Assembly (NCBI RefSeq): GCF_003946645.1
Contig: NZ_RHOU01000002.1
Span: forward strand, 26,488-90,487
Source: Lapidilactobacillus wuchangensis
GTDB lineage: Bacteria > Bacillota > Bacilli > Lactobacillales > Lactobacillaceae
Reading direction: 5' to 3'
Length of the DNA stretch: 64,000 nt
This document shows, piece by piece, positions 10,406 to 25,105 of this stretch (its first letter is position 1; each line of letters opens with the position of its first letter). The position numbers and the translations under genes are program-made. The notes under the pieces are model-generated. The model did not search any database and was not told the DNA's origin. It was given only the letters and a program-made list of their open reading frames with translations.

Positions 10406-10424
10406 TTACTCTAGAACTATAAGC
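10406..10424. repeat. direct repeat copy 1 (tttActctagaactataAg) flanking Type III R-M cassette
   Basis: 17/19 identical to 16006-16024 (tttGctctagaactataGg). The two copies bracket the mod-res module plus the tnpA fossil. Confidence 0.6.
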
Positions 10425-10438
10425 CTCACGTACTAGCC

Positions 10439-10468
10439 AGTGTTTCAGTCACTGGTTTTGTGTGTCAA
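10439..10468 (+). terminator. hairpin + U-run (ccagtgtttcagtcactgg ttttgtgtg); may also be an IS200-type subterminal hairpin
   Basis: Perfect 6-bp stem followed by TTTTGTGTG, downstream of the helicase gene and adjacent to the tnpA fossil. A second perfect hairpin gacccttgaaagggtc lies at 10508-10523. Confidence 0.35.
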
Positions 10469-10522
10469 AGCCAAACCACTTAAGCGATGTTTGTACTATT
10501 CATCCTGACCCTTGAAAGGGTC

Positions 10523-10990
10523 CTAATACCCGCACATACTCAATTTATCCATCACTTGATTATGTTTTTTCCCTAATCTAGAATATATATTCTTATATTT
10601 CTTTATAGTTGCTTCATTTTTTTCGATTGTGCTCATATAATATCCCTCTGACCAGAAATGTCGATTTTTAAATTTGTATGTTGATTGAACATCATTAACA
10701 CTGATTTCCCGTTTAAATACTTTATAAAGCTTGATATACTTATTTTTGGTTGTAACTCACCAACCAATGTACATGGCTCGGTATCATATGACCTTTAATA
10801 ATTTTCATGTCTTTATACTGGCTGACACAACAATCTAACATCATCCTGTAGATCTCGTCGATATTGTTTATAGATTACTTTTTTCTCATACTTTGGAGTG
10901 AATACGATATGGAGCCATTTGGTATGTGCAGGACTATTGAGGTTATTTGCCGTTTATGACGTCCTCTTTCGATTTTGATGACCTACATTT
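10523..10990 (-). pseudogene. tnpA: IS200/IS605-family tnpA (Y1/HuH transposase) fossil, multiply frameshifted with in-frame stops
   Basis: Minus-strand conceptual translation contains ...MRKK*SINNIDEIYRMMLDCCVSQYKDMKIIKGHMIPSHVHWLVSY. The SHVHWL stretch is the HuH motif of IS200 TnpA (HVHLL consensus). A second frame carries ...KFKNRHFWSEGYYMSTIEKNEATIKKYKNIYSRLGKKHNQ, matching the conserved C-terminal (F/L)WSxGY(F/Y)xST(V/I)G ... I.KYI.NQ block. Several stops and frame changes interrupt it, and no ORF >=60 aa is called here. Confidence 0.6.
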
Positions 10991-11316
10991 TAAATCTTAT
11001 AGGTGCATCTTTGGTATAGTCCTGCATAGTGAGTGGCTTTTTGTTTCACACTCATTCGTACATTCAACTTGGCCTAAGGCCATAACAAAACGTTTTGCTA
11101 CGGAAAAATGATTTTAGTAACATTGATGAATTTAAAGAGGAATACTGAGAATAAATTTTTGGTGAGATGTGGAAGATAATATCTATGACTTTTCAATTAA
11201 TGAAGATGTAAAGATTGAAGAAGTAAGTAGTCTTTATGTTATTAATACTTTTATCATTACAATATATTGGTGGAATGAAAAATTCAATGTTTTTAAAAAG
11301 ATGAAGGAGCAAAATT

Positions 11317-13275
11317 ATGTCTAAAATCGAGCCTAAATTATTCGACGAATTAAAAAAAGCACTTATCTCATTTGGGGACAAGTACTTCATTGGCGATGAA
11401 TTAAATCGTTCAAAAGTTTCTGATGATTTACGTGCTTATGATGAAGCTTTACTAGCAAAATTATTTGAAATTGATTTTATCAAAAAGAATTACATTAAAG
11501 AGGTTGCGGGACAAAAACTATTTCAAATTGATCAACTTGAAGAAGCGATTCTTTACGATGATTATTGGGACACAAGTTATACGAAATATGAAAACCGTGT
11601 TGGCTTAACTAGTAATGGCAAGTTTATTGAAGATAACCAGGATGTTGTTTTAGATTTTCCCTTTAAAGATGGTGTCCTAACGGCAAGCATGACCAAAGAA
11701 GATAATGAAAACGGCTATGACGATGCATTCTTAAATGAAGTTATCGAGAAAGATGAAATTGACCGCTTATTTGATAAGAAGATATTAAATAATGTGAAAA
11801 GATATGATGTTGACGGGGAAAAAGATACTGATTATTTTGATACAGAAAAAGACAATTTAATTATTAAAGGAAATAATCTGTTAGCGTTACATTCACTCAA
11901 TGAAATGTATTCGGGTAAGGTTAGATTTATTTATCTTGACCCACCTTATTATTTTGACAAGAGTAAGCCTAGCGATGCTTTTTCATATAATTCAAATTTT
12001 AAATTATCGTCTTGGCTAGTATTTATGAAGAATCGTTTAGAAGTTGCACGTGATTTACTTGATAGTGATGGTGTTATTTTTGTTTCTATTAGTGAAGATG
12101 GGCAAGCCTATTTAAAAATATTGATGGATGATGTATTCGGGAAAAATAATTTTGTCGAAACGTTTATTTGGCGAAATACTGATAATGCTGATTCTCTGGG
12201 GAATAAGAGCCGTTCCGGTTTGGAGTATATCCATGCATATGAAAAAGTTAAGAATTCAAATAGAAAATGGATTGGAAAAGATACAGAGAATGGTGATGCA
12301 CCCTTATTAAACTCTAGTAATGGTGTTAGTCAACTGGAATTTGAACCGGGAATTATACGGTTTAATATACCAGATGGAATTTATAAGGCAGGTAGTTATC
12401 CTAAAATTGAGCTTCTTGATGATTTGATTGTTGAAGATGGTAAAAATAAAAATATTATCAAACTCAAAGGAAAGTTCAAATGGAGTCAATCCTACCTAGA
12501 TGAAGAAGTACGAAAAGGTGGAGATTTTATAATTAAATCGAAGCAGTTCTCTATTCGTTATCAGAAATCTGAAAGCAATTCTATGGCACCTGAGAAAATG
12601 GTTGATACCACCTATCTTTCTAAAATGTTTGGTGTTGGTAGCTATGAAGATTCAAATTCACATTTAGAAAATTTACAAGTAAATTTCACGTACTCCAAAC
12701 CAGAATCTTTAATTGCTTTTCTTATGAGAGCAACTACTGAAGAAGATGATCTCGTCCTAGATTTCTTCATGGGATCTGCCACAACACAAGCTGTTGCAAT
12801 GAAGATGCACCGTCGATTTATTGGTATTGAACAAATGGATTATATTAATACTGTTTCAGTTCCTCGTTTACAAAAAGTCATTGCTGGCGAACAAGGGGGT
12901 ATATCTAAAGATGTTAATTGGCAAGGTGGTGGCTCATTCGTCTATGCTGAATTGATGCAAAAGAATATGGGGTATTTACAAGATATTATCGCCTCTACAA
13001 CAATTGATGAATTACATGAAATCTATAACCGTATGTTATCCGGTGTAGATGGCTCACAAGAATCAGCGGATATTTCTTTTAAAGCAGATTTAGATAAAAT
13101 TGAATGGGATGCAACTAAGGTTAAATTTGATGATCAAAAACGTCTGTTGATTAAGTTACTTGATAAAAATGGGTTGTACTATAATTACTCTGAAATTGAT
13201 GATCAGAATGTTCGAGAATTTTTGTCAGATAGTGATTATCAGTTCAATAAAGATTTCTATGGGACTGGTGAGTAA
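11317..13275 (+). CDS. mod: Type III restriction-modification Mod subunit (beta-class N6-adenine DNA methyltransferase)
   Basis: Motif IV IYLDPPYYFD precedes motif I DFFMGSATTQAVAMKMHRRFIGIE (beta-class order). 652 aa. Translationally coupled to the downstream res gene (stop 13275, ATG 13278). Confidence 0.85.
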   Translation: MSKIEPKLFDELKKALISFGDKYFIGDELNRSKVSDDLRAYDEALLAKLFEIDFIKKNYIKEVAGQKLFQIDQLEEAILYDDYWDTSYTKYENRVGLTSNGKFIEDNQDVVLDFPFKDGVLTASMTKEDNENGYDDAFLNEVIEKDEIDRLFDKKILNNVKRYDVDGEKDTDYFDTEKDNLIIKGNNLLALHSLNEMYSGKVRFIYLDPPYYFDKSKPSDAFSYNSNFKLSSWLVFMKNRLEVARDLLDSDGVIFVSISEDGQAYLKILMDDVFGKNNFVETFIWRNTDNADSLGNKSRSGLEYIHAYEKVKNSNRKWIGKDTENGDAPLLNSSNGVSQLEFEPGIIRFNIPDGIYKAGSYPKIELLDDLIVEDGKNKNIIKLKGKFKWSQSYLDEEVRKGGDFIIKSKQFSIRYQKSESNSMAPEKMVDTTYLSKMFGVGSYEDSNSHLENLQVNFTYSKPESLIAFLMRATTEEDDLVLDFFMGSATTQAVAMKMHRRFIGIEQMDYINTVSVPRLQKVIAGEQGGISKDVNWQGGGSFVYAELMQKNMGYLQDIIASTTIDELHEIYNRMLSGVDGSQESADISFKADLDKIEWDATKVKFDDQKRLLIKLLDKNGLYYNYSEIDDQNVREFLSDSDYQFNKDFYGTGE

Positions 13276-13277
13276 TT

Positions 13278-15986
13278 ATGGCGAAGTCTAAGAATAAAGA
13301 TGTTCAATCATTGAAATTTCCTTTAGTGGAACAGGCTGAACATGCAGAGAAAGATTTATTTCAAGAGAATTGGGCCATTCCTGATTATATTACAAATAAC
13401 TTAGCTCATACTTTTCGACCATATCAAGATAAAGCGCTAAGTAATTATCGTTATACACAAACACAAATCAAGCCTAACCCACAACATGTCTTGTTCAATA
13501 TGGCAACAGGATCTGGGAAAACGGATTTAATGGCAGCTTTAATTTTATATTTGTATCACGATCAAGGTTACACAAATTTCTTATTTACCGTGAATACGAA
13601 CTCGGTTCTGATGAAGACAAAAGATAATCTGATTAATACTGACAGCGATAAGTATCTCTTTCAAGATAAAATTGAGATTGCTGGACAATATATTACGATT
13701 CAAGAGGTCAATCGCTATCCAAGAATCAAACAGGCCAATACAGTTTATCTTAAACTTGCAACTGTTCAAACAGTTTCGAATGATTTATTTACGGTCAAAG
13801 AAAATACGATGGGTTTAACTGATTATGAACAAGATCCAGTCGCAATCTTGGCTGATGAAGCCCATCACTATTCAGCAAGTACGAAGTCGGAAAAAGAAGC
13901 AGAACATACCTGGGAATCAGCGATTAACAAGATTTTGAATGCTAGAAATACTGAAGACCAAAAAAATTTGTTGCTCGAGTTTACAGCAACAGTCGATTTT
14001 GAGAAGACTGCTATCAATGATAAATACCGTGATAAGGTTGTTTATCGTTATCCTTTAAGTCGTTTTATGTATGATGGGTACTCGAAACAAGTTAAGCGGA
14101 TTGAAACGTCAGCTAGTGATGATGAAAAAATGTTAAATGTCGTACTGCTCTCTCAGTTTAGAAAATATCGTGCTCAAATTGAAAATGTCACCAGTACCTT
14201 CAAACCAATTATCATGTTTAAGTCTGCTAAAGTTGCTGTTTCTAAAAAGGCGAATGCTAAATTTAACGAGATTATTGCCAAGCTAACCGCTAAAGATTTA
14301 TTAGCCTTTATTGAACGTCAGCAACTGATGGATAGCAATGATAATGCAGCACTTGAGATTGCTTATAATTATTATTTAAAGAATAAAGATAACTTAGGTA
14401 AAATTGTCCGCGAAATCAAACATGATTTTGACCCTAAAAATGTTTTAAATGCGAATGACGCTAGTGGCAATATGCTTGAAAAAGGTCAGTATGAGGCATT
14501 AAATTCTTTAGAAAGTTCTAATAATTTTTATCGTGTTGTTTTTGCGGTTGCCAAACTCACTGAAGGCTGGGATGTCTTGAACTTATATGATATTGTTCGT
14601 ATCAATGAAGAGGCTGCAACTAATAAAAATGCCACGATGGTAGAGGCTCAATTGATCGGTCGCGGCGCACGCTACTATCCATTTGAGATTAATGGTAAGA
14701 AGAGTTATCAACGCCGGTTTGATCAAGATCCATCTAATAAGCAACTCCTACTAGAGACACTTCATTATCACACAATGAATGAACCACAATACTTAAAACA
14801 GCTAGTTGGATCATTAAAGCAAATGGATTTGCCAACTAGCAAAGATAGTAAAAATCCTCCCATTGAAATTAAAGTTAAATCTGAGTTCAAAAGAACTGAG
14901 GCTTACCGACACGGAAAGATTTACTATAATGAATCAGTTGACGTTCCTAGTAGTTACTTTGACAGCATTCAAAAGTATGGTATTGAGCATAAACCTGATC
15001 TTCAGCGTAATTTAAATTATGGTTCACGGGAAGTTAATTATTCGGCGTATGCAGCAAACGTCGAGACTAAGACAATCAGTGTTTCAAAATTTGATGATCG
15101 TTACATCAAAAAAGCTATTCAAAAGTTAGATTTTTATCAGTTTTCAAATTTGAAAAAATATATTCCTAATATTCAGTCCATGAATGATTTTATTTATGGA
15201 AGTAACTGGTTGAATGCTAATAATCTAAAATTATTTTTAACGGTACCTGTTGAATATCGTGAAGCTAATTTGACCGCAGAAGAAATCTTAAAAGTTATCA
15301 TTGATCTTCTAAAAGAATACCAAGTTAAAATCCAATCAGGTTATGTTAAGCAGCGCGGAACTAATAACTTTATCGGCTATCCAATTAAGGAATATCTCAG
15401 TGATTATAATAAACGTGTCCCTGAGTATGATACACAAACACAATTTGATAAAACGCAAGATATTAAAGTTTATCAAATGAAAGATGATCCATTTTATGTT
15501 TATGATAATGCTATTGTTAATCGACTTGAGTATCAATTAATTGAACGAATTAAGGCATATGTTGAGGATTTAAAAGTTAAGTATGGTAAAGCAGTATACC
15601 TTTTTCGCATGGATGAAACGATGCATCGAGAATCAGCTAAGAGCGAAAAACTGAAGTTACATCAATATCAGGAAAAACCTAAATATGGCATTCATCTGAC
15701 AGGATTTCAACCAGACTTCATTTTATTTCTTGAAGATACAAATGATTATTATTTCCAAATTTTTATTGAGCCTAAGGGCATGAGTGGCGAACGCTTTGAG
15801 AAAGAATTATGGAAAGAAGAGCTTCTGTTATATATGACGGATCATCATGCTGATATGGAATTTATGGACAATGAAAGCGATATTCAGATTAGTGGTTTAA
15901 AATTTTATACTAATGGTGATGGACGTGGCACAATGGAACAATTAAAAGAAATCACAAACATTGCGAATTATACAGACAAACCATGA
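13278..15986 (+). CDS. res: Type III restriction enzyme Res subunit (SF2 helicase + C-terminal PD-(D/E)xK nuclease)
   Basis: Walker A FNMATGSGKTDLMAALILY, DEAH box ILADEAHH, C-terminal nuclease motif GFQPDFILFL ... IFIEPKG. 902 aa. Confidence 0.85.
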   Translation: MAKSKNKDVQSLKFPLVEQAEHAEKDLFQENWAIPDYITNNLAHTFRPYQDKALSNYRYTQTQIKPNPQHVLFNMATGSGKTDLMAALILYLYHDQGYTNFLFTVNTNSVLMKTKDNLINTDSDKYLFQDKIEIAGQYITIQEVNRYPRIKQANTVYLKLATVQTVSNDLFTVKENTMGLTDYEQDPVAILADEAHHYSASTKSEKEAEHTWESAINKILNARNTEDQKNLLLEFTATVDFEKTAINDKYRDKVVYRYPLSRFMYDGYSKQVKRIETSASDDEKMLNVVLLSQFRKYRAQIENVTSTFKPIIMFKSAKVAVSKKANAKFNEIIAKLTAKDLLAFIERQQLMDSNDNAALEIAYNYYLKNKDNLGKIVREIKHDFDPKNVLNANDASGNMLEKGQYEALNSLESSNNFYRVVFAVAKLTEGWDVLNLYDIVRINEEAATNKNATMVEAQLIGRGARYYPFEINGKKSYQRRFDQDPSNKQLLLETLHYHTMNEPQYLKQLVGSLKQMDLPTSKDSKNPPIEIKVKSEFKRTEAYRHGKIYYNESVDVPSSYFDSIQKYGIEHKPDLQRNLNYGSREVNYSAYAANVETKTISVSKFDDRYIKKAIQKLDFYQFSNLKKYIPNIQSMNDFIYGSNWLNANNLKLFLTVPVEYREANLTAEEILKVIIDLLKEYQVKIQSGYVKQRGTNNFIGYPIKEYLSDYNKRVPEYDTQTQFDKTQDIKVYQMKDDPFYVYDNAIVNRLEYQLIERIKAYVEDLKVKYGKAVYLFRMDETMHRESAKSEKLKLHQYQEKPKYGIHLTGFQPDFILFLEDTNDYYFQIFIEPKGMSGERFEKELWKEELLLYMTDHHADMEFMDNESDIQISGLKFYTNGDGRGTMEQLKEITNIANYTDKP

Positions 15987-16005
15987 CTACCCGTAAAATG
16001 AGTAG

Positions 16006-16024
16006 TTTGCTCTAGAACTATAGG
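16006..16024. repeat. direct repeat copy 2 (tttGctctagaactataGg)
   Basis: See 10406-10424. Lies 20 nt after the res stop codon. Confidence 0.6.
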
Positions 16025-16417
16025 ACCTATGTACAAGTCAGCGTCTATAATCACCTCCAAGCTCTTGGTAGAATTATCCTATCATCAGTTTGGAGGTTTT
16101 ACATATGAGAGAAATTATTAAATTGAACCTTGATAATCTTAGAAAATCAACTCGTTTAGATAACACAGTCTGCTTCCTGCGAACAGAACATTGAACGATT
16201 AAAATTTTTAATGGGATTAAGCCACACCTATTTGAATCACTACTGAAGGTGGTTTCGGGTCATGGCGAGTAAATTGCTCGATGTTGAAGCGGTTTATTTG
16301 ATTTGTGGTCGACAACTAGGCAAGTAATGTTTTATTCCTAGTAGCTAGTTATGATGAACGCGGTAGCTTTTATAATATGAGGCGTGATGCTTGAATTAAT
16401 TCAAAGAGCGAACGTAG

Positions 16418-16446
16418 GTTCTCTTTTGGTCTATATATGGTATAAT
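16418..16446 (+). promoter_or_regulatory. candidate sigma-A promoter with extended -10 (TGgTATAAT) for the cyclase operon
   Basis: tggtataat at 16438-16446, ~38 nt upstream of the ATG at 16484. The -35 element is weak (ttctct). Confidence 0.35.
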
Positions 16447-16483
16447 GGCTTTATTAAAATACTATATATAGGCAGGCGTGTGT

Positions 16484-17584
16484 ATGAAAGATACATCTTA
16501 TGTTTTACAGAAAATCTGTAGCCAAATTTCACTATCTGATACGGCGAAAGCTAATGTTGTTCGGGAATATACCTCACTTGGAAAGTTAATTTCCAACAGT
16601 GATTTAATCGGCTGTAGAACTGAAATAAAACCTCAAGGATCATATAATCTTGGAACAGCTATAATGCCCTTAAATGGTTCCGATGATGATTTTGATATTG
16701 ACTTGGTAGCTATTTTGGATGAGATGCCAACTGCTCAGAAAACTAAAATTGTTATCGGTGATGTATTAAAAGCAAGTGATTTGTATTCATCCAAACTATT
16801 GCCTGAGAAAAAACGTGCTTGGACAATTGACTATGCCAAGTCACACGTGGATGTTGTTCCGGCAGTTAAAAATGATGTGGCAGATATCTCGGTGACAAAT
16901 AAAAATAGCAAAGATAATTATGATTATCATCCAAGTAGTCCATTTAAATTCAAGGAATGGTTTATTGAAAAGGGACAAGATATTTATCAAGGGTCTACTA
17001 CTGTCAAAAACCATATTCGTAATGAAGTGGAACAGCCTGAGGAATATGATCAATCTACAATTTTACAACAGGTTGTGCAGTTGTTGAAATTTCATCGAAA
17101 TAAGATGTTTGAGAATCGACCTGATAAGGAAAAGCCAATCTCAATGGTAATTACCATTTTAGCAGCTCAGTCCTATAACGGTCAGAACGATCTTTCAACT
17201 GCTTTGGTAGAAGTAACTAATAGATTACGCGATCAAATTGAATATGATGTACAAGGAGTTCCACACATCCTCAATCCGACAAATCCGAAAGAAGATTTTA
17301 CTGATAAATGGAAAGAGCATCCCGAACGGAAGACAGCTTTTTTTGAATGGCTTCAAGTTGTTGAACGAGAATTGGGAACCACAAACAAGACAAATATTAT
17401 TTCATGGCAAGAGACACTTTCAAAAGTCTATGGTGAGAAACGCACACGAAACGCGTTTAATGATTTAGGCAAATGGCGATCAGATATTCAAAGACGCGGA
17501 GAAATACCTGTTAATGATGCTGGAATATTTGAAGATGAACATAGTGACAATTATGTGACACCAAATACCTTTTGGGGGGATTAA
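16484..17584 (+). CDS. SMODS-type / cGAS-DncV-like nucleotidyltransferase (CD-NTase), CBASS-type cyclase
   Basis: N-terminal pol-beta NTase signature QGSYNLGTAI ... GSDDDFDIDLV (G[SG]x9-13DxD) plus a third acidic block SHVDVVPAV. ~367 aa, typical CD-NTase length. The ATG at 16484 is preferred over the tracked GTG at 16478. Confidence 0.75.
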   Translation: MKDTSYVLQKICSQISLSDTAKANVVREYTSLGKLISNSDLIGCRTEIKPQGSYNLGTAIMPLNGSDDDFDIDLVAILDEMPTAQKTKIVIGDVLKASDLYSSKLLPEKKRAWTIDYAKSHVDVVPAVKNDVADISVTNKNSKDNYDYHPSSPFKFKEWFIEKGQDIYQGSTTVKNHIRNEVEQPEEYDQSTILQQVVQLLKFHRNKMFENRPDKEKPISMVITILAAQSYNGQNDLSTALVEVTNRLRDQIEYDVQGVPHILNPTNPKEDFTDKWKEHPERKTAFFEWLQVVERELGTTNKTNIISWQETLSKVYGEKRTRNAFNDLGKWRSDIQRRGEIPVNDAGIFEDEHSDNYVTPNTFWGD

Positions 17585-17585
17585 A

Positions 17586-18005
17586 TTGTCTAATGTTTGT
17601 AGACTTAAGTATTATTATCAATTAAATTTGTTATTTCCTAATCCCCATAATTCAATAACTGCAAATGGCTATTTTCATGTTTATGGAAATATACAGGCTA
17701 ATTCACTCGGAAAAAAGTACAAGATTGAATTTCGATCTTGTAAAAAAAATATTCAGGTTATCATTCACAACTTTTTTATTCCGGGGTCGTTATATGATAT
17801 ACCGCATATCTTTGTAAATCAATCTAGTAAAGAAAAAAAAGAAATTTTCTTGTGTTTATATAGAAACAAGCATAATCGAAAAGAATTTATCTTCGGTGAT
17901 AATTTAAAAGAGACATTAATTCCTTGGACAAAAGAATGGTTGTATTTTTATGAATTATTTTTAGTTACTGGAAAATGGTATGGGAACGGTGAACATCCTG
18001 AGTAA
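17586..18005 (+). CDS. hypothetical 139-aa basic/aromatic-rich protein, middle gene of cyclase operon (TTG start, no internal Met)
   Basis: Starts 2 nt after the cyclase stop with a GGGGGGA SD 6 nt upstream of TTG. A 139-codon open frame in ~30% GC DNA is unlikely by chance. Overlaps the next gene by 26 nt. No TM segment and no recognisable motif. Confidence 0.45.
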   Translation: MSNVCRLKYYYQLNLLFPNPHNSITANGYFHVYGNIQANSLGKKYKIEFRSCKKNIQVIIHNFFIPGSLYDIPHIFVNQSSKEKKEIFLCLYRNKHNRKEFIFGDNLKETLIPWTKEWLYFYELFLVTGKWYGNGEHPE

Positions 18006-18867
18006 AAAAATAAGAGTGGTTCATGAAAAAAGGTTTATATGTAAAAATATTCTTCTACCTATAATTTTACCTCTTGTCCTATGTGAGGTTATTACAAATT
18101 ATTTTCCAAGAAAAAAGGTTTTATCTGTCATGCAAGCGATATTTAACATTAGTGAAAGCAGAAGATTGCTGCTCGAGAGTTTCATGTTTGTGTACCCTAT
18201 TTTTATTTTTTGCATTTTTTTCTTCTTATATCGCAAATTTATTTCAAAAATTTTCTGGAAGCGAAATCTTTTACCTGAGAATCAATATTTTTTGGTGTCA
18301 GTGTGGTCATTAAAGATTGCGACTTTTATTAGTGGGTTAGATCAGGGAAGTGCCACTAGTCTTCCAATATGGCAATATATTGATTACCTGTATAATAAAG
18401 AATCATTTGGTTGGAGATACTTAACACTAAAGACTCCTGATGTAACACAATCTCCCAAAGGGACAGAAATTAAACAAGTTTTCTACCAAAAAAATGATGA
18501 TAAAAATATGAGTCCAGTTCGATCAATAATAGTGGCAGACACATACCCAATTGACATGGACTTGCTACCTGAATTTGTTACTAATCATGACTACGTTCTT
18601 TTTCAACGCCTGGTTAATAATCAAACGGATAGAGTGCGTGGTTACAATCAAGATTTGGTGTTGGATATTATTAGACAAATTAGAAAAGCTGAAACAGATG
18701 GCGTTCAGGATATTTATTTACTTTTAAATACTAGTCCTACTCACGTGACGGAAATTATGCGAGAATCTTTTCAGGATGCTGGACGGAACTCCATAAAGCA
18801 TCTGTATGTGTATGAGTCGCAATCAGAATCTCCATTTAGATTTGTCAAACCACATCGTATTTATTAA
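17980..18867 (+). CDS. 2-TM membrane protein with soluble C-terminal domain, putative CBASS membrane effector (SLATT / S-2TM-like)
   Basis: Two N-terminal hydrophobic helices (ILLPIILPLVLCEVITNYF; FMFVYPIFIFCIFFFLY) then a ~180-aa alpha/beta-looking domain (SIIVADTYPIDMDLL ... DIYLLLNTS). Overlapping gene arrangement with the cyclase operon. Confidence 0.55.
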   Translation: MGTVNILSKKIRVVHEKRFICKNILLPIILPLVLCEVITNYFPRKKVLSVMQAIFNISESRRLLLESFMFVYPIFIFCIFFFLYRKFISKIFWKRNLLPENQYFLVSVWSLKIATFISGLDQGSATSLPIWQYIDYLYNKESFGWRYLTLKTPDVTQSPKGTEIKQVFYQKNDDKNMSPVRSIIVADTYPIDMDLLPEFVTNHDYVLFQRLVNNQTDRVRGYNQDLVLDIIRQIRKAETDGVQDIYLLLNTSPTHVTEIMRESFQDAGRNSIKHLYVYESQSESPFRFVKPHRIY

Positions 18868-19563
18868 GATGATTTTCAATTATAAAATATATGTAATTAA
18901 GATATCGTGATCGTTGTAATAGTGTTGGTTACCGTTATTTTGTAACTTAACAAAATAACGTTCGCATTTCAGTGATAACGCAGTAGTACGCTACTATAAC
19001 TGGAAATTAATCAAAGTTATTGAACTTCAAGTAATTATAATGTTATCGAAAATGTATTCTGACTTGTGATCTTATACGCTTTTTCGGAATAAATATGTTA
19101 TAATAAACTTACTTAGTATGAGAGTTGAACAGCACAACTCGTTTATGATATCAAAGTTACCATAAGAAATACTAAACGAGGCTATAACACATCCTTTCTA
19201 AGATGTCTACCTCTAATTGCTTAATCACCTTGACCACAATAGTAATTATGATCTCAGTGATATTAGCGCTGAAGGAAAAGTCACTCGATTGCACCACTAG
19301 GATTATCACAATCACTAGTATGTAACGAATACGCTTATCCATTCTATTATAACTTTACGTAAAGTATGCGATTATACTTTACCGGTCAGCAGAGTATTTT
19401 ATCGGGCTATGGTAATTTACAAGAATTTCCGGAGCGCCAGCTGTAATTTGGTAGCATTTAGACGTCACTTTGTATGATTCTGACCGTCAGTTTGAATAAG
19501 TGAACGATTTCCGGAGGGTCTGCGGGTTACCGCAGGCCCTTTTAGTATCTTTAGGAGGATTTT
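18868..19563 (+). ncRNA. ORF-free structured leader upstream of RT, candidate RT-associated ncRNA/template
   Basis: 696 bp with no ORF >=60 aa in any frame. Perfect 11-bp hairpin ccgttattttgt-aactta-acaaaataacg (18935-18962). 10-nt direct repeats atttccggag at 19425-19434 and 19507-19516. GC-rich hairpin gggtctgcgg-gtta-ccgcaggccc (19517-19540) followed by cttttag and the RBS AGGAGG. Confidence 0.3.
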
Positions 19564-21117
19564 ATGAACGGCGAAGTTGATCGATTACTTGAAAAATCTA
19601 ATAAAGTACTTGGTAAAACATACAAACATTTTGATGTTAATCCAAGTAAGTCTTCTGCTAAGAAGTTTATTGCCAATACAGTACTTAAACCTAACGTTAT
19701 TGCACGTTATCGATTCTACCCGTTTATTATCTATTCACAGGTGACAATAAAATATCATCGGACTAAGGGACATCTCAGAGCACATGTACGTGATAAAGTA
19801 CGCCCTTTATCTTTAGTTGCCCATCATGACGCATTGATTTATGTAAAATATGCGGATGAATTAAATTCGTCATATGAAGAATATCTGGTTGAGCATAATT
19901 TTTCCAATGTACCAACGGCGTATAGAAAATCCAGGCATACTTCTAATATTAATGCAGCGAAAGAAGTATTTGATTTTATTGTTGCCCAGAATGATTGCTG
20001 GATCATAAAGGGTGATTTTAAAGGCTTCTTTGATAATCTAAGACACCGAATTTTAAAAGAAAATCTACGCCGAGTTATGTCTGTAGCCCACTTAACGCCA
20101 GATTGGTTGGCTGTTTTTAAGTCAGTGACAAGGTATAACTGGGTTATGAGCGCAGAACTAAATAAGTCATTGAAAAAAGCAAATCTGGTTGATAGAAAAT
20201 GGCCTGCCTATCTAAAAGAGCGCAAAGACTTCGCCAAATTGATAGCGGATGGTAATTTAAATGTTAACGGATTTAATCAAATAGGCATTCCACAAGGAAC
20301 ACCTATTAGCGCTGCACTTGCAAATGTTTATATGATTGAATTTGATGAGAAACTTAATAAAATTGCTCTTGAAAAGGGAGGATTGTACCGTCGATATTCA
20401 GATGATTTTGTTATTGTTATTCCGAAGAAAAATTTAGATGAGGAAGACCTGAATATATTTTTGAAGGGAGTTATAGATCTTAGCCAGCTTTTTACTTCTT
20501 TAGAGATTGAGCGGCATAAAACTAAAATATTTAGTTTTGGTAACTCTGATGGTACTAATGTAATTTTACAAGAAGATAAAAGCAAGAACTTTATTCCTGC
20601 TTGGTTAGATTATTTAGGCTTTATCTTTAATGGTTCTGAAGTTAAAATGCGAGAACGCGGCGTATATAAGTTCCATTATAAAAGCAAAAAGGCAATTAAT
20701 AAGTTTTTAAGAATTAGGAATGATAGAAATCAAATTCTATCAAGGAAGGTTCCAACGCCAGATAGAAAACAACGTCTGGTATGGCAAAACGGAAAGCAAA
20801 AACGAATCGAACTAAACCAATATGATAAACGGCTTGCTTATAAAAAAAGGATTGAAAGGGAAGAGAAAAGAATTAAAGCTAATGCGCCTAATTCAAAGAT
20901 GGTTGCAAAGATGTACACTGTTGGCAAAAGATATGGCGAACGATACTCGATGATTGGATATGCCAAAAGAGCGCAGACAATATTTTCCAACAATAAAGGA
21001 CGATACAAAGTTAGTGTTCTGAATCAAATTAATGATCAGATTAAGAATAATCAGTTTCAAATTAATAGAATTAGAGACAAAGGTGCATATGCCGCACATA
21101 AAAGAGTTAATGAATAG
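19564..21117 (+). CDS. reverse transcriptase, Abi/UG (defence-associated) or retron-like; 517 aa with ~140-aa N-terminal and ~170-aa basic C-terminal extensions
   Basis: RT motifs IKGDFKGFFDNLRHRIL (motifs 1/2), GIPQGTPISAALANVYM (motif 4), YRRYSDDFVIV (motif 5, YxDD), LEIERHKTKIF (motif 6), LGFIFNG (motif 7). No maturase (X) domain recognised. Confidence 0.8.
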   Translation: MNGEVDRLLEKSNKVLGKTYKHFDVNPSKSSAKKFIANTVLKPNVIARYRFYPFIIYSQVTIKYHRTKGHLRAHVRDKVRPLSLVAHHDALIYVKYADELNSSYEEYLVEHNFSNVPTAYRKSRHTSNINAAKEVFDFIVAQNDCWIIKGDFKGFFDNLRHRILKENLRRVMSVAHLTPDWLAVFKSVTRYNWVMSAELNKSLKKANLVDRKWPAYLKERKDFAKLIADGNLNVNGFNQIGIPQGTPISAALANVYMIEFDEKLNKIALEKGGLYRRYSDDFVIVIPKKNLDEEDLNIFLKGVIDLSQLFTSLEIERHKTKIFSFGNSDGTNVILQEDKSKNFIPAWLDYLGFIFNGSEVKMRERGVYKFHYKSKKAINKFLRIRNDRNQILSRKVPTPDRKQRLVWQNGKQKRIELNQYDKRLAYKKRIEREEKRIKANAPNSKMVAKMYTVGKRYGERYSMIGYAKRAQTIFSNNKGRYKVSVLNQINDQIKNNQFQINRIRDKGAYAAHKRVNE

Positions 21118-21164
21118 CTTCATATAATTAACTTTCACATATATCTGAATTAAAGCACTTTACT

Positions 21165-21212
21165 TTATGACAAAGGCCATACAATCTTTAAAGATTGTAT
21201 GGCCTTTGTTTG
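21165..21212. terminator. bidirectional rho-independent terminator
   Basis: Perfect inverted repeat aaaggccatacaatcttt/aaagattgtatggccttt, followed by gtttgagcatttttt. Confidence 0.75.
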
Positions 21213-21283
21213 AGCATTTTTTGATACGAGAATTAATTTATCTGACTTATATTTAGTCTTTAATTAATCTGAACGTATTCAAT

Positions 21284-21763
21284 CTACTTCCCCCGTTTGA
21301 TTTCTAAATACTTACTCCGTGCAGTCTGAAAATCTTGTTTCATTGTTGGATAAGCTTTTTTAATATCGTGGGCGCTGATGAAGAAGAAAATAATGGCGAT
21401 AATTTCCAGTGGCAAGAAGAATAATCCGACGTAGCTAAAGTAGGTGTCGCCACTGCCACCTGCAGACAAATCTTTAAACAGAATTGGTATCAGGATGATT
21501 GAAATAATATTGGCAATGTAAATTAAAATTGGTGCGACATACTTTCTTTTCGAAATTTTGGTTAACTTGCTGGCACCGACGTGGGCCACGACTGTGAAAA
21601 TGAAAAGCAAGAGGCCGAGACTGCTATTCGTATTTAGTCCCAGCATTGCGAGGCCCATCAGCACGATTGTCGCGATCGGTACTCCTAAGTAATAACTGTA
21701 TGTTTGATATGGTCGACCATTATCCTTAAATTCTTGTTTAGCTGTTTTTAAATCTTCGTTCAT
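21284..21763 (-). CDS. hypothetical integral membrane protein (~4 TM), 159 aa from MNEDL start
   Basis: AGGGGGA RBS before the ATG at 21763. Hydrophobic segments throughout. Confidence 0.6.
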   Translation of the reverse strand: MNEDLKTAKQEFKDNGRPYQTYSYYLGVPIATIVLMGLAMLGLNTNSSLGLLLFIFTVVAHVGASKLTKISKRKYVAPILIYIANIISIILIPILFKDLSAGGSGDTYFSYVGLFFLPLEIIAIIFFFISAHDIKKAYPTMKQDFQTARSKYLEIKRGK

Positions 21764-22309
21764 GATACTTCCCCCTAAATATTGGTTTGTCCCCCAAGTT
21801 TTGCTATCATGTGTCATCAGTGTAATTGCTTTTGATCTCCCTAAGATAAAAAGCTACTAAAAACACATTTTTCAACACTATTAGAACTTATATTAATATA
21901 ACACTATCTGCTCCTTAAAATTGCTTGTTTTCTTAAATATGGCAGCATTTTGCGAAAAATTCATAAGCAGGATGCCAAATTAGTCGGGCTTTTATGATCA
22001 ATCACCAGCCAGATATTAACTTGATTATTTAAGCACATTGTTTCAATCGGATTGTCTGTTCCATGTTTAATGTTGAAAATTTTCAGCACTCACAGTCCAA
22101 CCTGAATCCTGTCTAGACACCCGCCACCAAAGGCTTTCGCGATGGCAGATTGTTTGAACTTTCAAATTTCTTATGTTAGTGTTTAGCCATTAATGGGATT
22201 AATTTAGGGTTTGGAAGTTGCCGGCAGAATGATTGAGTGATCAATGATTTGCTGGGCTTTCAAAGATAAGTCGGTGGTTTTTAAGCGCCGACTTTCGGGA
22301 GTGAAAATA

Positions 22310-25105
22310 ATGACAGATTCAAAGATGACGACGGATCAGTTTGCCAAGTTGCCTCTTGATCAGTTTTATCAGACGCTGACGACCAGCGAGACTGGTTTGA
22401 CTGATGACGTGGCGGCGCAGCGGCTGAAAGTGGTCGGTGCCAATACGATTCAGCAGGCTCACAAGCAGTCGCAATTCAAAGTGTTCATTAAGAACTTCAT
22501 TAGTTTGATGGCGATTTTGTTGTGGGTCAGTGGCGTGATTGCGATGATCGCCGGGATGCCGGAATTGGGGATCGCGATTTGGGCGGTCAACGTGATCAAC
22601 GGTTGCTTCAGTTATTGGCAAGAACATGCTGCTCAGAAAGCCACCGACTCACTGAAAAAAATGCTGCCAAACTATACCCAAGTTTTGCGTAATGGTACGG
22701 CCAAGCAAATTGATTCGACTGAACTTGTTCCAGGCGATGTGTTCCTAATTCAGGCCGGCAATAGTATTTCGGCTGATGCGCGGATTGTCACCGGCAATGC
22801 GTTACAGGTCGACGAGTCAGCACTAACCGGTGAGTCAGTCGTGGTTGATAAGTTACCTAATTATGATAAAGGAGACGGCCAATTTTCTGAACAAAATGTG
22901 GTTTACGCCGGCACGATGGCAGTCAATGGTACCGCGACCGCCGTGGCGATTAACACCGGAATGCAGTCGGAGTTTGGCCAGATTGCCGCTTTGACTGAAC
23001 ATCAGAAAACGAACGTGACGCCGTTGACCGCCGAATTAAATCGGTTGACCCGACAAATTTCTCTGATTGCAATCATCATCGGTTTACTGTTCTTCTTTGC
23101 GGCCATTTTCTTCGTTCATTACCCAGTGGCCAAGTCTTTTGTTTTCGGCCTGGGCTTAATTGTCGCCTTCATTCCTGAAGGCTTGCTACCGACGGTGACC
23201 TTGTCGTTGGCTCAAGGCGTGACACGGATGTCCAAGAAGCATGCGCTGGTCAAGGAGTTGAGCAGTGTCGAGACGTTGGGCGAAACCACTGTAATTTGCT
23301 CCGATAAAACTGGGACGTTAACTCAAAATCAAATGACCATCAATCACGTTTGGCTGCCAGGACAGGAGTATACCGTCAGTGGCGAAGGTTACGTCAACAA
23401 TGGTCAGATCCAGAAAAATAATCAGCCGGTGGTTTTAGCGAACGTGCCGGATTTGTCGTTGCTAATTCGTGTTGCCGCGCTGAATAATGATACTGATATT
23501 CAGAGTGAAGATTCACCAAGACCGAAAATTGTCGGCACGCCAACTGAGGCGGCCCATTTAGTTTTGGCGCAGAAATCAGGCTTGGATTTAAAGCAGTTGC
23601 AGCAAGACTATCCGCGAATCCAAGAATTGCCTTTTGATTCTAGTCGGAAACGGATGACCACGATTCACACGCAGCCTAATCAGGCCGAGCCAGTAATTTA
23701 TGTGAAGGGCGCCTTAGTTGGTATTTTGGCTCAGAGCGACCGTCTGCTGGAGAATGGTCAAGTCCGGCCCATTACTGACGCCGATAAAAAGACGATTTTG
23801 GCGGCTAACGAAGGTTATGCTACCCAAGGTTTGCGCTCAATGGCGATTGCTTATCGTGACTTGGATGGGCAAAATGGCCTGCCAAGTAAAGCTGCTGATT
23901 GCACGATTGATAATACTGAGCAACATTTGATTTTTGTTGGCTTGACGATTATGGCAGATCCACCGCGGCCAGAGATTTATGATGCCATCGATAAATGTCA
24001 TCGCGCCAATATTCGCGTGATTATGGTGACTGGTGATAGTCCACTGACTGCTAAAAGTGTCGCCGTGAAAATCGGGATTGATAGTGAAAATGTTCGGGTG
24101 ATCACCGGCGATGAATTGAGTCAAATGAGTGACCACGAGTTACAAAAAGCCGTGCGTGGTGAAGTGATTTTTGCGCGGGTGGCGCCAGATCAGAAGTATC
24201 GCATTGTGAAGGCCAATCAGCACAACGGCGAAATTGTTGCTTCAACGGGTGATGGTGTTAATGACGCGCCAGCCTTGAAGCAAGCCGATATTGGTATTGC
24301 CATGGGCTTGACCGGGACGGACGTAGCCAAAGATGCGGCCGACATTATTTTGACCGACGATAATTTTGCCTCGATTGTGGCGGCAATTGAAGAAGGACGA
24401 ACGGTTTACAGTAACATTCAGAAATTCCTGCTCTATATTTTGAATAGTAATGTACCTGAGGCGATTCCGTCGATTCTGTTTCTTTTCTCCCGGGGGCTGA
24501 TTCCTTTGCCGTTAACTGTGATGCAGATTTTGACGATTGATTTAGGCACCGATATGTTGCCAGCCCTAGGGTTAGGCGCTGAGAAAAGTGAGCCGGGCAT
24601 CATGGACCAGCCACCTCGTGATCGGGATGCGCATTTACTGAATAAGTCGGTGGTCTGGAAGGCGTTTGCTTGGTATGGCCTGCTGGAGTCGATTGTTTCT
24701 GTGGCGGCCTATTTCTTCATCAATAGTCGTTATGGTTGGCCGCAGACGGCGCTGGCTGCCAGTGGCAATGTTTATATGTTGGCGACGACGATGACGCTGG
24801 CCTCGATTGTCTTTTGCCAGATTGCCATGGCCAATAATTGTCGGACGCAAGTGACTTCAGTCTTTAAAATTGGCCTGTTCAGCAATCATCGAATTTGGTT
24901 CGGGATCGCTGCAGAAATCCTAATTGTGGCCTTGCTGATGTATGTGCCGTTCTTACAAAGCGTGTTCAACACCACTGGTCTAGCGCTCTCTGACTGGGCT
25001 TTACTCTTCTGTATTCCAATTCCATTGTTCCTGCTTGAAGAAGGGCGCAAAGCGATTGTGCGCTGGCGGATGAAGCGTCAGCAACAACCAGTCAGTTTAA
25101 AATAA
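22310..25105 (+). CDS. P-type cation-transporting ATPase (Ca2+/Mg2+-type, P2/P3 subfamily)
   Basis: ICSDKTGTLTQNQM phosphorylation motif, MVTGDSPLTA, GDGVNDAPALKQADIGIAMG, 8-10 TM segments. GGGAG RBS before ATG at 22310 (MTDSK); the tracked start at 22244 is too far upstream. Confidence 0.9.
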   Translation: MTDSKMTTDQFAKLPLDQFYQTLTTSETGLTDDVAAQRLKVVGANTIQQAHKQSQFKVFIKNFISLMAILLWVSGVIAMIAGMPELGIAIWAVNVINGCFSYWQEHAAQKATDSLKKMLPNYTQVLRNGTAKQIDSTELVPGDVFLIQAGNSISADARIVTGNALQVDESALTGESVVVDKLPNYDKGDGQFSEQNVVYAGTMAVNGTATAVAINTGMQSEFGQIAALTEHQKTNVTPLTAELNRLTRQISLIAIIIGLLFFFAAIFFVHYPVAKSFVFGLGLIVAFIPEGLLPTVTLSLAQGVTRMSKKHALVKELSSVETLGETTVICSDKTGTLTQNQMTINHVWLPGQEYTVSGEGYVNNGQIQKNNQPVVLANVPDLSLLIRVAALNNDTDIQSEDSPRPKIVGTPTEAAHLVLAQKSGLDLKQLQQDYPRIQELPFDSSRKRMTTIHTQPNQAEPVIYVKGALVGILAQSDRLLENGQVRPITDADKKTILAANEGYATQGLRSMAIAYRDLDGQNGLPSKAADCTIDNTEQHLIFVGLTIMADPPRPEIYDAIDKCHRANIRVIMVTGDSPLTAKSVAVKIGIDSENVRVITGDELSQMSDHELQKAVRGEVIFARVAPDQKYRIVKANQHNGEIVASTGDGVNDAPALKQADIGIAMGLTGTDVAKDAADIILTDDNFASIVAAIEEGRTVYSNIQKFLLYILNSNVPEAIPSILFLFSRGLIPLPLTVMQILTIDLGTDMLPALGLGAEKSEPGIMDQPPRDRDAHLLNKSVVWKAFAWYGLLESIVSVAAYFFINSRYGWPQTALAASGNVYMLATTMTLASIVFCQIAMANNCRTQVTSVFKIGLFSNHRIWFGIAAEILIVALLMYVPFLQSVFNTTGLALSDWALLFCIPIPLFLLEEGRKAIVRWRMKRQQQPVSLK

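What the first reader, a model, noticed from the sequence alone, without database searches (positions are those of the whole stretch)
16418..18867. Three-gene SMODS/CD-NTase operon with an uncharacterised Met-less 139-aa middle gene and a 2-TM effector (non-canonical CBASS-like architecture)
The cyclase has the canonical GSYxxGTAI ... GSDDDFDIDLV ... HVDVVP core. Instead of a single effector or the Cap2/Cap3 or HORMA/TRIP13 accessories, it is followed by a tightly coupled 139-aa basic/aromatic ORF. That ORF starts at TTG (2 nt after the cyclase stop, behind a G6A Shine-Dalgarno) and contains no methionine. Next comes a 295-aa protein with two N-terminal TM helices and a ~180-aa soluble domain of unclear fold. 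Neither accessory protein matches a family I can name from sequence. The middle gene may be a new sensor or regulator component.
Basis: partly seen in the sequence, partly recalled or inferred. Interest (0 to 1): 0.8.

Follow-up and report, generated by a model that had tools for sequence, protein, structure and literature searches.

The report
Ordinary E2-type CBASS anti-phage operon
The three genes are a real anti-phage signalling operon, but it belongs to a catalogued and experimentally studied subtype (type II-short, or E2-CBASS): the unnamed 139-aa middle gene is the known E2-like regulator and the membrane protein is a known 2TM effector with a SAVED-like nucleotide sensor.

Summary
At 16484-18867 (+) three tightly coupled genes encode a CD-NTase/SMODS cyclase (366 aa), a 139-aa TTG-initiated protein with no internal Met, and a 295-aa protein with two TM helices.

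The claim of novelty does not hold.
- The middle protein matches PADLOC E2 models (4.6e-27), carries Pfam PF26395 "E2-CBASS", and matches the solved S. marcescens CBASS E2 by sequence (8HSB_B, 2e-8) and by fold (Foldseek probability 1.00). Its catalytic residues are conserved: H74, C90 and H137 correspond to SmE2 H87, C101 and H152.
- The cyclase ends in the conserved ...TFWG|D tail that such E2s process.
- All 12 related loci examined have the cyclase directly upstream of the E2. The seven Lactobacillaceae loci also have SUa-2TM downstream.
- A lactococcal plasmid system with the same three parts is published as phage-protective.

Verdict: a new member of a known kind, of low interest. Small particulars are that the E2 lacks the C-terminal lysine tail of SmE2, and that the SUa-2TM effector family has no biochemical study in the literature I could search. 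The operon lies in a low-GC defence island of Lapidilactobacillus wuchangensis, beside a type III R-M system and a DRT2-like reverse transcriptase.

The parts
16438..16446 (+). Possible extended -10 promoter element (TGgTATAAT), 37 nt upstream of the cyclase ATG
   Evidence: Read directly from the sequence. The consensus scan did not list it because no -35 hexamer is present, and promoter-like hits in the region are at chance level (15 found, 16.3 expected). This is inference only.
16484..17584 (+). CD-NTase / SMODS cyclase, 366 aa, probably clade G-like. Active-site residues are G52-S53, D71, D73 and D123.
   Evidence: Pfam SMODS 3.2e-14 and DncV-like NTFase 2.8e-7. PADLOC Cyclase PDLC00780 1.9e-94. 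PDB 9woo_A cGAMP synthase 3e-33, SmCdnG 8hsb_A 1.4e-21, 7ljn_A (BdCdnG per PMC12948482) 4.7e-10. 100% identical to an L. wuchangensis protein.
17564..17581 (+). Cyclase C-terminal tail N-T-F-W-G365|D366. The conserved glycine is predicted to be exposed and conjugated by the E2.
   Evidence: 26 of the 29 full-length-type homologues (non-AGS-C, non-truncated) among the first 51 hits end in [HN][TN]F[WYFH]G plus 1-10 residues, 22 of them with a single residue after the Gly. The equivalent SmCdnG G406|E407 is the cleavage and conjugation site.
17586..18005 (+). Stand-alone E2-like protein (E2-CBASS), 139 aa, TTG start. H74 is at nt 17805-17807, catalytic C90 at 17853-17855, H137 at 17994-17996.
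   Evidence: PADLOC E2 PDLC00863 4.6e-27. Precomputed Pfam PF26395 E2-CBASS. PDB 8hsb_B 2.2e-8. AF2 model pLDDT 82, Foldseek top hit 8hsb_B with probability 1.00. H74 and C90 are invariant, and H137 is conserved in 8 of the 9 clade and Bacilli/Clostridia homologues of alignment A3 and in SmE2 itself.
17980..18867 (+). SUa-2TM effector, 295 aa. TM helices span about residues 16-43 (nt 18025-18108) and 62-92 (nt 18163-18255). The cytosolic SAVED-like domain spans about residues 95-295 (nt 18262-18864).
18933..18960 (+). AT-rich perfect 11-bp hairpin 66 nt after the effector stop; a possible weak operon terminator
   Evidence: Inverted repeat I3. The terminator scan did not call it, because it has few G-C pairs and no T-run. 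Inference only.

Best explanation
This is a type II (short) CBASS anti-phage operon, also called E2-CBASS, in a defence island of Lapidilactobacillus wuchangensis.

Proposed mechanism, by homology to the Serratia marcescens system (inferred, not shown here):
1. The E2-like protein acts as a cysteine protease and conjugating enzyme through C90, H74 and H137.
2. It binds the C-terminal region of the cyclase, removes the terminal D366, and forms a thioester with G365.
3. It then transfers the cyclase onto lysines, including lysines of other cyclase molecules ('poly-cGASylation'). This holds the cyclase in check before infection and boosts it during infection.
4. The activated cyclase makes a cyclic (di)nucleotide. 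A cGAMP isomer such as 3',2'-cGAMP is the most likely product.
5. The nucleotide binds the cytosolic SAVED-like domain of the 2-TM effector.
6. The effector then opens or oligomerises in the membrane and kills or arrests the infected cell (abortive infection).

Shown here: family membership of all three proteins, conservation of the catalytic and tail residues, the fold of the E2 and of the effector's sensor domain, and conserved gene order. Inferred from homologues: the covalent chemistry, the identity of the nucleotide, the membrane mechanism and the phage defence itself.
For: Family hits:
- Cyclase: PADLOC 1.9e-94, Pfam SMODS.
- E2: PADLOC 4.6e-27, PF26395 E2-CBASS.
- Effector: Pfam SUa-2TM 1.8e-22, PADLOC 2.1e-88.

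Solved homologues and models:
- SmCdnG-SmE2 complex, 8hsb_A 1.4e-21 and 8hsb_B 2.2e-8.
- The E2 model's best fold match is 8hsb_B, probability 1.00.

Conserved residues:
- E2 H74, C90 and H137 correspond to SmE2 H87, C101 and H152, which are required for linkage, bond conversion and immunity.
- The cyclase tail ...TFWG|D is conserved across homologues.
- The cyclase has G-S, DxD and D active-site residues, and S151 corresponds to SmCdnG S167.

Gene order: 12 of 12 related loci have the cyclase immediately upstream of the E2. Seven have SUa-2TM downstream, and five have HNH-SAVED Cap5 instead.

No E1 or JAB gene flanks the operon. The neighbours are a type III R-M system and DRT2.

Literature:
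- E2-CBASS is cited as present in 616 genomes.
- The S. marcescens operon (cGAS, E2, an exonuclease and 2TM-SAVED) makes 3',2'-cGAMP and protects against phage T4.
- A lactococcal plasmid operon made of SUa-2TM, SMODS and an E2 is phage-protective (PMC11381338).
Against: - Nothing was tested experimentally for this locus.
- The E2 ends two residues after H137. It has no equivalent of SmE2 K151 (E136 here) or of K159, the preferred isopeptide acceptor. The 'stored' E2-isopeptide state described for S. marcescens may therefore not exist here.
- Most annotated homologues of the E2 are about 155 aa, with a start upstream that overlaps the cyclase 3' end. Here a TGA at 17556-17558 closes that frame, so the TTG is the first usable start. 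The model still has the N-terminal helix (residues 2-16), so I do not read this as a truncation.
- SmCdnG Y172 is F156 here.
- Assignment to clade G rests only on best hits, not on a phylogeny.
- The effector gives no sequence hit to Pfam SAVED or Saf-2TM. The SAVED assignment rests on a predicted fold from an 8-sequence alignment.
- I found no biochemical study of SUa-2TM.
Confidence: 0.9

Rival explanations
1. One reading: a non-canonical CBASS-like operon in which the 139-aa protein is a new kind of sensor or regulator and the 2-TM protein has an unknown fold.
For: The local Pfam-A and NCBIfam scans gave no hit for the 139-aa protein. NCBI annotates both accessory proteins as 'hypothetical protein'. 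In 2021 the equivalent third gene of CdnG-Cap5 operons was still described as a new family with no Pfam number (PMC8568899).
Against: PADLOC E2 models hit at 4.6e-27. Pfam PF26395 E2-CBASS is precomputed on this very protein and on all its homologues. There is a sequence and fold match to the solved SmE2, and the catalytic H/C/H residues are conserved. The effector is Pfam SUa-2TM with a SAVED-like fold.
Confidence: 0.03
2. The middle frame is a non-coding spacer or a chance ORF, and the operon is really a two-gene type I CBASS.
For: The ORF has a TTG start, no internal Met, and sits in AT-rich DNA where long ORFs are unusual but possible.
Against: The frame is open in all 12 related loci examined. 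31 of 139 columns are invariant across 8 clade homologues at 50-70% identity. dN between clade members is 0.32-0.39, the same as for the cyclase at 0.34-0.36, with dS saturated. The profile finds 714 cluster representatives, mostly of 130-165 aa. The AF2 model is confident (pLDDT 82).
Confidence: 0.01
3. The operon is a decaying or inactive copy. On this reading the E2 has lost its ancestral upstream start and its C-terminal lysine tail, so cyclase priming fails.
For: A TGA at 17556-17558 in the E2 frame removes the upstream start that is annotated in most homologues. The protein has no tail after H137-P-E. In S. marcescens, deleting K151-R162 abolishes immunity.
Against: The tail-less ending ...GEHP[EKQ] is the norm in this Lactobacillaceae clade, in 5 of 8 sequences. 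The S. marcescens deletion also removes H152, which is retained here as H137, and K159A alone did not affect immunity. The L. nasuensis locus also lacks an upstream ATG. The N-terminal helix is present in the model. All three ORFs are intact, with translational-coupling junctions: a 1-nt gap and a 26-nt overlap.
Confidence: 0.06

Closest known systems
Serratia marcescens E2-CBASS (SmCdnG-SmE2, PDB 8HSB/8YJY/9KKB; Yan et al., bioRxiv 10.1101/2022.05.25.493364; Xiao et al., PMC12948482)
   Same: A cyclase followed by a stand-alone E2 and a 2TM effector with a SAVED-type sensor. The cyclase C-terminal Gly is followed by one acidic residue (G406|E407 against G365|D366). The E2 H/C/H residues are conserved. 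There is no E1 and no JAB.
   Different: Sequence identity is only about 24% for the E2 (Foldseek alignment to 8hsb_B); no cyclase identity was computed (phmmer E-value 1.4e-21). The window's E2 is 139 aa against 162 aa and lacks the C-terminal loop and tail bearing K151 and K159. The window has no exonuclease gene. The cyclase is shorter (366 against 407 aa). SmCdnG Y172 is Phe here.
Lactococcal plasmid pUCCL620 type II CBASS (PMC11381338)
   Different: It is plasmid-borne rather than chromosomal. I did not compare the sequences directly, because that plasmid was not among the PLSDB hits.
CdnG-Cap5 type II (short) CBASS (Fatma et al. 2021, PMC8568899)
   Same: A homologous cyclase plus small-E2 module. 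Five related loci found here (L008-L012) have this form. The cyclase product there is 3',2'-cGAMP, which is sensed by a SAVED domain.
   Different: The effector is a soluble HNH nuclease-SAVED protein encoded upstream of the cyclase, not a membrane protein encoded downstream.
Cap14 (Saf-2TM + SAVED; the BtCap14 chloride channel gated by 2',3'-cGAMP, PMC10402079; PDB 9OM7)
   Different: It belongs to a different Pfam family (SUa-2TM PF18179, not Saf-2TM or SAVED PF18145). The sensor domain is more compact (about 200 aa). BtCap14 sits in a two-gene type I operon with CdnB.
Canonical type II CBASS (Cap2 E1-E2 fusion plus Cap3 JAB; PDB 7TO3)
   Same: A ubiquitin-like conjugation of the cyclase C-terminus regulates signalling. 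The E2 fold is distantly similar (third Foldseek hit, not significant).
   Different: There is no E1 domain and no JAB peptidase. The E2 itself is thought to do the C-terminal processing, using His residues that are not conserved in Cap2.

Membership tests
CBASS type II (short) / E2-CBASS | CD-NTase (SMODS) cyclase with G-S ... DxD ... D active site | tested here: met
   Pfam SMODS 3.2e-14 and PADLOC Cyclase 1.9e-94. G52-S53, D71, D73 and D123 align to SmCdnG G-S, D84, D86 and the HLD motif.
CBASS type II (short) / E2-CBASS | A stand-alone small E2-like protein next to the cyclase, with no E1 domain and no JAB (Cap3) gene | tested here: met
   PADLOC E2 4.6e-27, PF26395 E2-CBASS, PDB 8hsb_B by sequence and by fold. 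The flanking genes are type III Mod/Res and a DRT2-like RT, not E1 or JAB.
CBASS type II (short) / E2-CBASS | E2 catalytic Cys plus the two His residues specific to E2-CBASS (SmE2 C101, H87, H152) | tested here: met
   C90 and H74 are invariant in 8 clade homologues, and H137 is conserved in 8 of the 9 homologues of alignment A3 and in SmE2. The IPH...LCL...G-x-H-P motifs are shared with SmE2. The H-to-C spacing is 16 here against 14 in SmE2, and aligners shift the Cys by 2 unless a gap is opened, as in L011 and L008.
CBASS type II (short) / E2-CBASS | Conserved glycine at or near the cyclase C-terminus | tested here: met
   The window cyclase ends ...NTFWGD. 26 of the 29 full-length-type homologues (non-AGS-C, non-truncated) among the first 51 hits end in [HN][TN]F[WYFH]G plus 1-10 residues, 22 of them with a single residue after the Gly.
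CBASS type II (short) / E2-CBASS | E2-binding helix plus three-stranded sheet in the cyclase C-terminal region | not tested
The sequence of this region is reported to be poorly conserved, and it did not align to SmCdnG.
CBASS type II (short) / E2-CBASS | Covalent cyclase~E2 linkage, and phage defence that depends on it | not testable with these tools
   This needs biochemistry and plaque assays.
CBASS type II (short) as first defined with Pfam PF14457 (Prok-E2_A) | The E2 matches PF14457 | tested here: not met
   No Pfam-A hit at E<=0.1. The protein belongs to the second small-E2 family, PF26395, which had no Pfam number when it was noted in 2021.
CD-NTase clade G (CdnG) | Phylogenetic placement with CdnG; the lid residues Ser and Tyr (SmCdnG S167, Y172) | tested here: inconclusive
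   SmCdnG and BdCdnG are among the three significant PDB hits, and relatives pair with Cap5 as CdnG does. S151 corresponds to S167, but F156 replaces Y172. No phylogeny was built.
SUa-2TM effector (Pfam PF18179) | Full-length match to the family model; two N-terminal TM helices; found with SMODS and a ubiquitin-system gene | tested here: met
   1.8e-22, covering residues 11-294 of 295 and positions 3-278 of the 279-position model. Hydropathy and the model show two long TM helices. The context is SMODS plus an E2.
SAVED-domain sensor | SAVED fold, or a match to Pfam SAVED (PF18145) | tested here: inconclusive
   No SLATT or Cap15-type Pfam hit. The modelled soluble domain is alpha/beta and SAVED-like, not a beta-barrel.
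Canonical type II CBASS (Cap2 + Cap3) | [quoted passage not shown] | tested here: not met
   The E2 is 139 aa with no E1 domain, and no JAB gene is present in or beside the operon.

The most novel reading that the evidence does not exclude
The Lactobacillaceae branch of E2-CBASS is a minimal, tail-less version. Its E2 ends right after the second catalytic His and has no equivalent of SmE2 K151 or K159, so it could not park the cyclase on itself through an isopeptide bond. Regulation might then rely on the thioester alone, with direct cyclase-to-cyclase conjugation. In addition, the SUa-2TM effector, a compact SAVED-like sensor on two TM helices, could prove to be a nucleotide-gated membrane channel of a family that has not been studied biochemically.
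Probability: 0.3. Interest if true: 0.35.

Novelty: new member of a known kind. Interest (0 to 1): 0.15.

Why it matters
The scientific value is limited. PADLOC carries models for all three components, so I would expect it to call this operon a CBASS of the E2 type, although I did not run PADLOC's system-level classification.

Three practical points follow:
1. Public annotation still labels the E2 and the effector 'hypothetical protein'. The finding is therefore an annotation gap, not a biological novelty.
2. The locus adds a compact Lactobacillaceae example of E2-CBASS with a naturally tail-less E2. It could serve as a simple test of whether the E2-isopeptide state seen in S. marcescens is needed.
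3. I found no biochemical work on the SUa-2TM effector family, so any member is a reasonable target for electrophysiology or ligand-binding studies.

The surrounding 15-kb low-GC island (UvrD-like helicase, type III R-M, CBASS, DRT2-like RT) is a typical defence island.

Tried and rejected
1. A programmed frameshift at the T4G6 run (17570-17579) that would fuse the cyclase and the E2, by analogy with natural cyclase-E2 fusions (PADLOC PDLC00816; fused representatives). Rejected. The E2 frame is +1 relative to the cyclase, not -1. The G-run simply encodes the conserved W-G-D. It is interrupted (TGGGGTGAT) in L. nasuensis.

2. N-terminal truncation of the E2. Homologues are annotated about 16 aa longer. 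That extension overlaps the cyclase 3' end, and its apparent conservation (HIRFGV) is largely the out-of-frame shadow of the conserved cyclase tail HTFWGD. The conserved N-terminal helix begins at the window's TTG.

3. dN/dS as a test of selection. dS is saturated between all available homologues (NG86 returned -1), so only dN and residue conservation could be used.

4. The local Pfam-A and NCBIfam scans of the E2 gave nothing. PF26395 appears only in the precomputed annotations, apparently because it is newer than the local copy.

5. A PDB sequence search with the effector gave only noise. The fold search was needed.

6. Promoter and terminator consensus scans were uninformative, with hits at chance level.

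7. The 82-nt direct repeat upstream of the DRT2-like RT as a Neo-type repeat unit. The concatenated unit is not stop-free in any frame.

8. No Rfam family was found in 6500-22500, and no tRNA in the window.
Full report
**What is in the sequence**

ORF listing and direct reading confirm three same-strand, tightly packed genes.
- The cyclase ORF opens at GTG 16478, and its probable start is ATG 16484. It ends at TAA 17582-17584.
- One base after the stop, a TTG at 17586 opens a 139-aa ORF ending at 18005. It has no internal Met, 18 K+R against 11 D+E, and 25 aromatic residues.
- An ATG at 17980 lies inside the last 26 nt of that ORF and opens a 295-aa ORF ending at 18867. Hydrophobic segments lie at about residues 19-43 and 62-92.

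The finding's start coordinate (16418) is upstream non-coding DNA. An extended -10-like TGgTATAAT sits at 16438-16446, but consensus promoter and terminator scans of the region are at chance level. The G6 run before the TTG can serve as a ribosome-binding site. It is also the coding sequence of the cyclase's last residues, W-G-D.

**Source and setting**

All three proteins are 100% identical to proteins of Lapidilactobacillus wuchangensis. There the two accessory proteins are annotated 'hypothetical protein'.

The operon lies in a low-GC stretch (31-37% GC, about 7000-22000) of a window that is otherwise 37-54% GC. The island contains:
- a UvrD/GajB-like helicase (7864-10233);
- a type III methylase and restriction enzyme (11317-15986);
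- the operon itself;
- a DRT2-like reverse transcriptase (19564-21117).

This is a typical defence island.

**Identity of the three proteins**

Cyclase:
- It matches Pfam SMODS and the DncV-like NTase domain and a PADLOC CBASS cyclase model at 1.9e-94.
- Its significant solved relatives are a cGAMP synthase (9woo_A, 3e-33), SmCdnG (8hsb_A, 1.4e-21) and 7ljn_A, identified as BdCdnG in PMC12948482 (4.7e-10).
- G52-S53, D71, D73 and D123 align with the SmCdnG catalytic residues. S151 aligns with the CdnG lid residue S167, and Y172 is replaced by F156.

Middle protein:
- It gave nothing in the local Pfam-A or NCBIfam copies.
- It hits eight PADLOC 'E2' models, the best at 4.6e-27.
- It carries the precomputed Pfam family PF26395, named E2-CBASS, as do all its homologues.
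- It matches the solved E2 of the S. marcescens CdnG-E2 complex (8hsb_B, 2.2e-8).
- An AlphaFold2 model (pLDDT 82) has an N-terminal helix, a four-stranded sheet, a loop carrying the Cys, and a C-terminal helix. Its best Foldseek matches are 8hsb_B and 8yjy_B (probability 1.00). Cap2 (7to3) follows, but not significantly.

Third protein:
- It is a full-length match to Pfam SUa-2TM, 'SMODS- and Ubiquitin system-associated 2TM effector domain' (1.8e-22).
- It also matches a PADLOC 2TM effector model (2.1e-88) and a 'SAVED_TM' model (7.8e-43).
- The 'soluble domain of unclear fold' is therefore a compact SAVED-like cyclic-nucleotide sensor.

**Functional residues**

The S. marcescens work gives the reference points:
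- SmE2 C101 and H87 are needed to cleave the residue after the cyclase's C-terminal Gly406 and to form the covalent link.
- H152 is needed for bond conversion and for immunity.
- K159 is the preferred isopeptide acceptor but is dispensable for immunity.

In the window's E2 the motifs IPH74, LC90L and GEH137P correspond to IPH87, LC101L and GKH152P. H74 and C90 are invariant, and H137 nearly so, across the homologues. The H-to-C spacing is two residues longer than in SmE2. Ungapped alignments therefore shift the Cys by two. The Clostridia/Bacilli homologues have the SmE2 spacing and align with a two-residue gap.

The cyclase ends ...NTFWG365-D366. 26 of the 29 full-length-type homologues (non-AGS-C, non-truncated) among the first 51 hits end in [HN][TN]F[WYFH]G plus 1-10 residues, 22 of them with a single residue after the Gly. 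This matches SmCdnG G406-E407.

One real difference remains. The window's E2 stops two residues after H137 and has Glu where SmE2 has K151. It therefore has no counterpart of the lysine-bearing tail. This is the usual state in its clade, where five of eight sequences end GEHP[EKQ].

**Is the middle ORF a real gene, and is the architecture conserved?**

- Eight close homologues share 31 invariant columns.
- dN between clade members (0.32-0.39) equals that of the cyclase (0.34-0.36), although dS is saturated.
- A profile search of 1.84 billion cluster representatives finds 714 relatives at E<=1e-3. Most are 130-165 aa. A few are fused to the C-terminus of proteins of 500-580 aa, consistent with published cyclase-E2 fusions.
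- In 12 of 12 related loci the cyclase is immediately upstream of the E2. These loci are from Lacticaseibacillus casei/zeae, L. nasuensis, Lactiplantibacillus pingfangensis, Limosilactobacillus balticus and mucosae, plus Bacilli and Clostridia genomes and MAGs.
- The seven Lactobacillaceae loci have SUa-2TM downstream, and in the four whose junctions I checked its start lies inside the conserved E2 C-terminus. The other five instead have an HNH-SAVED Cap5 upstream.

The cyclase-E2 pair thus behaves as a module with exchangeable SAVED-type effectors, as expected for CBASS.

**The E2 start codon**

Most homologues are annotated about 16 aa longer, starting inside the cyclase 3' end. In the window that frame is closed by TGA at 17556-17558, so the TTG is the first available start.

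The apparent conservation of the extension (HIRFGV against window HQIPFGG) is largely the shifted-frame image of the conserved cyclase tail HTFWGD. The conserved N-terminal helix starts at the TTG. L. nasuensis also lacks an upstream ATG.

I therefore see no truncation.

I also considered a frameshift at T4G6 that would fuse the two proteins, and rejected it. The required shift is +1, and the G-run is not conserved at the nucleotide level.

**Comparison with what is known**

- Type II CBASS with only an E2, called 'type II (short)' or E2-CBASS, is cited as present in 616 of more than 5000 catalogued systems.
- The reference S. marcescens operon encodes cGAS/CdnG, an E2, a putative exonuclease and a 2TM-SAVED effector. 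It makes 3',2'-cGAMP and protects against phage T4. Protection depends on the cyclase, the E2 and the effector, and on G406, C101, H87 and H152.
- A lactococcal plasmid system made of a SUa-2TM effector (286 aa), a SMODS cyclase (383 aa) and an E2 (155 aa) is published as active against lactococcal phages.
[quoted passage not shown] That explains why a reader working from memory could not name it.
- The effector resembles Cap14 (Saf-2TM plus SAVED, a 2',3'-cGAMP-gated chloride channel) in design and fold, but it belongs to a different sequence family. The only paper in the searchable library that mentions SUa-2TM is the lactococcal one.

**Most likely mechanism**

Steps 1-3 are inferred from the S. 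marcescens system, and steps 4-5 from SAVED and 2TM effectors in general.
1. The E2 docks on the cyclase C-terminal region and removes D366 using C90 and H74.
2. It forms a G365~C90 thioester.
3. It passes the cyclase onto lysines, including lysines of other cyclase molecules, and this tunes cyclase activity on infection.
4. The cyclase makes a cyclic dinucleotide, probably a cGAMP isomer.
5. The SAVED-like domain of the membrane effector binds it, and the TM helices compromise the membrane, aborting the infection.

Because the E2 lacks the lysine tail, the self-isopeptide 'parked' state of SmE2 may be missing here. This is the only feature I would call a variation, and it is shared by the clade.

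**Verdict**

The claim of a non-canonical architecture with a new component is not supported.

It is a new, unannotated member of a known kind, and I score interest at 0.15.

Noticed in passing
window 18868-21117: A DRT2-like reverse transcriptase gene lies at 19564-21117 (PADLOC Drt2 1.1e-115; NCBIfam Drt2 313 bits, below the 390 cutoff). It is preceded by a 700-nt gap with no long + strand ORF and no Rfam hit. The stretch 19140-19560 folds more stably than shuffles (z = -3.0). It holds a 13-bp GC-rich hairpin at 19513-19542 just before the RT's ribosome-binding site, and a direct repeat ATTTCCGGAG at 19425 and 19507. It also holds long-range inverted repeats (19169-19183 with 19534-19548; 19154-19164 with 19408-19418) and a stop-free minus-strand stretch at 19173-19355. 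This may be the DRT2 template ncRNA. The 82-nt repeat unit is not stop-free when concatenated.
   Followed up: partly
window 7000-22000: A low-GC island (31-37% GC, against 37-54% in the flanks) lies between a SpaA/thioester-domain adhesin gene (3136-7029, minus strand) and a P-type ATPase gene (22244-25105). It carries several defence genes. No tRNA was found in the window, and I did not see an integrase.
   Followed up: partly
window 7864-10233: A 789-aa UvrD-family helicase has good matches to PADLOC GajB (1.2e-53) and 'RTasHel' (4.4e-54) models. No adjacent GajA-like ATPase/TOPRIM partner is present, so its system assignment is unclear.
   Followed up: no
window 10523-10767 (minus strand): Two short adjacent ORFs (37 and 44 aa) look, from memory of the family, like fragments of an IS200/IS605-type Y1 transposase (...KISISSFIKYLNGKSVLMMF...). 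They are probably a decayed insertion sequence inside the island. An intact IS200-like transposase also sits just downstream of the E2 in related locus L011 (Pfam Y1_Tnp 8e-41).
   Followed up: no
window 15987-16483: The 500-nt gap between the type III restriction gene and the cyclase has a higher GC content than its surroundings. It contains a 29-aa ORF (16106-16195, MREIIKLNLDNLRKSTRLDNTVCFLRTEH) that may be a remnant of an N-terminal gene fragment. No CapW- or CapH/CapP-type regulator gene is present.
   Followed up: no
loci L008-L012 (Bacilli, Clostridiales, Eubacterium infirmum, Faecalimonas): Distant relatives of the same cyclase-E2 pair sit downstream of an HNH-SAVED (Cap5-type) effector rather than upstream of a SUa-2TM effector. 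This shows effector swapping around a constant cyclase-E2 module. In L010 the cyclase frame appears split into two ORFs (1780-2211 and 2151-2939), so it may be a pseudogene or a sequencing error.
   Followed up: partly
window 21284-21817 (minus strand): A 177-aa multi-pass membrane protein at the edge of the island has no significant Pfam or PADLOC match. Its function is unknown.
   Followed up: no
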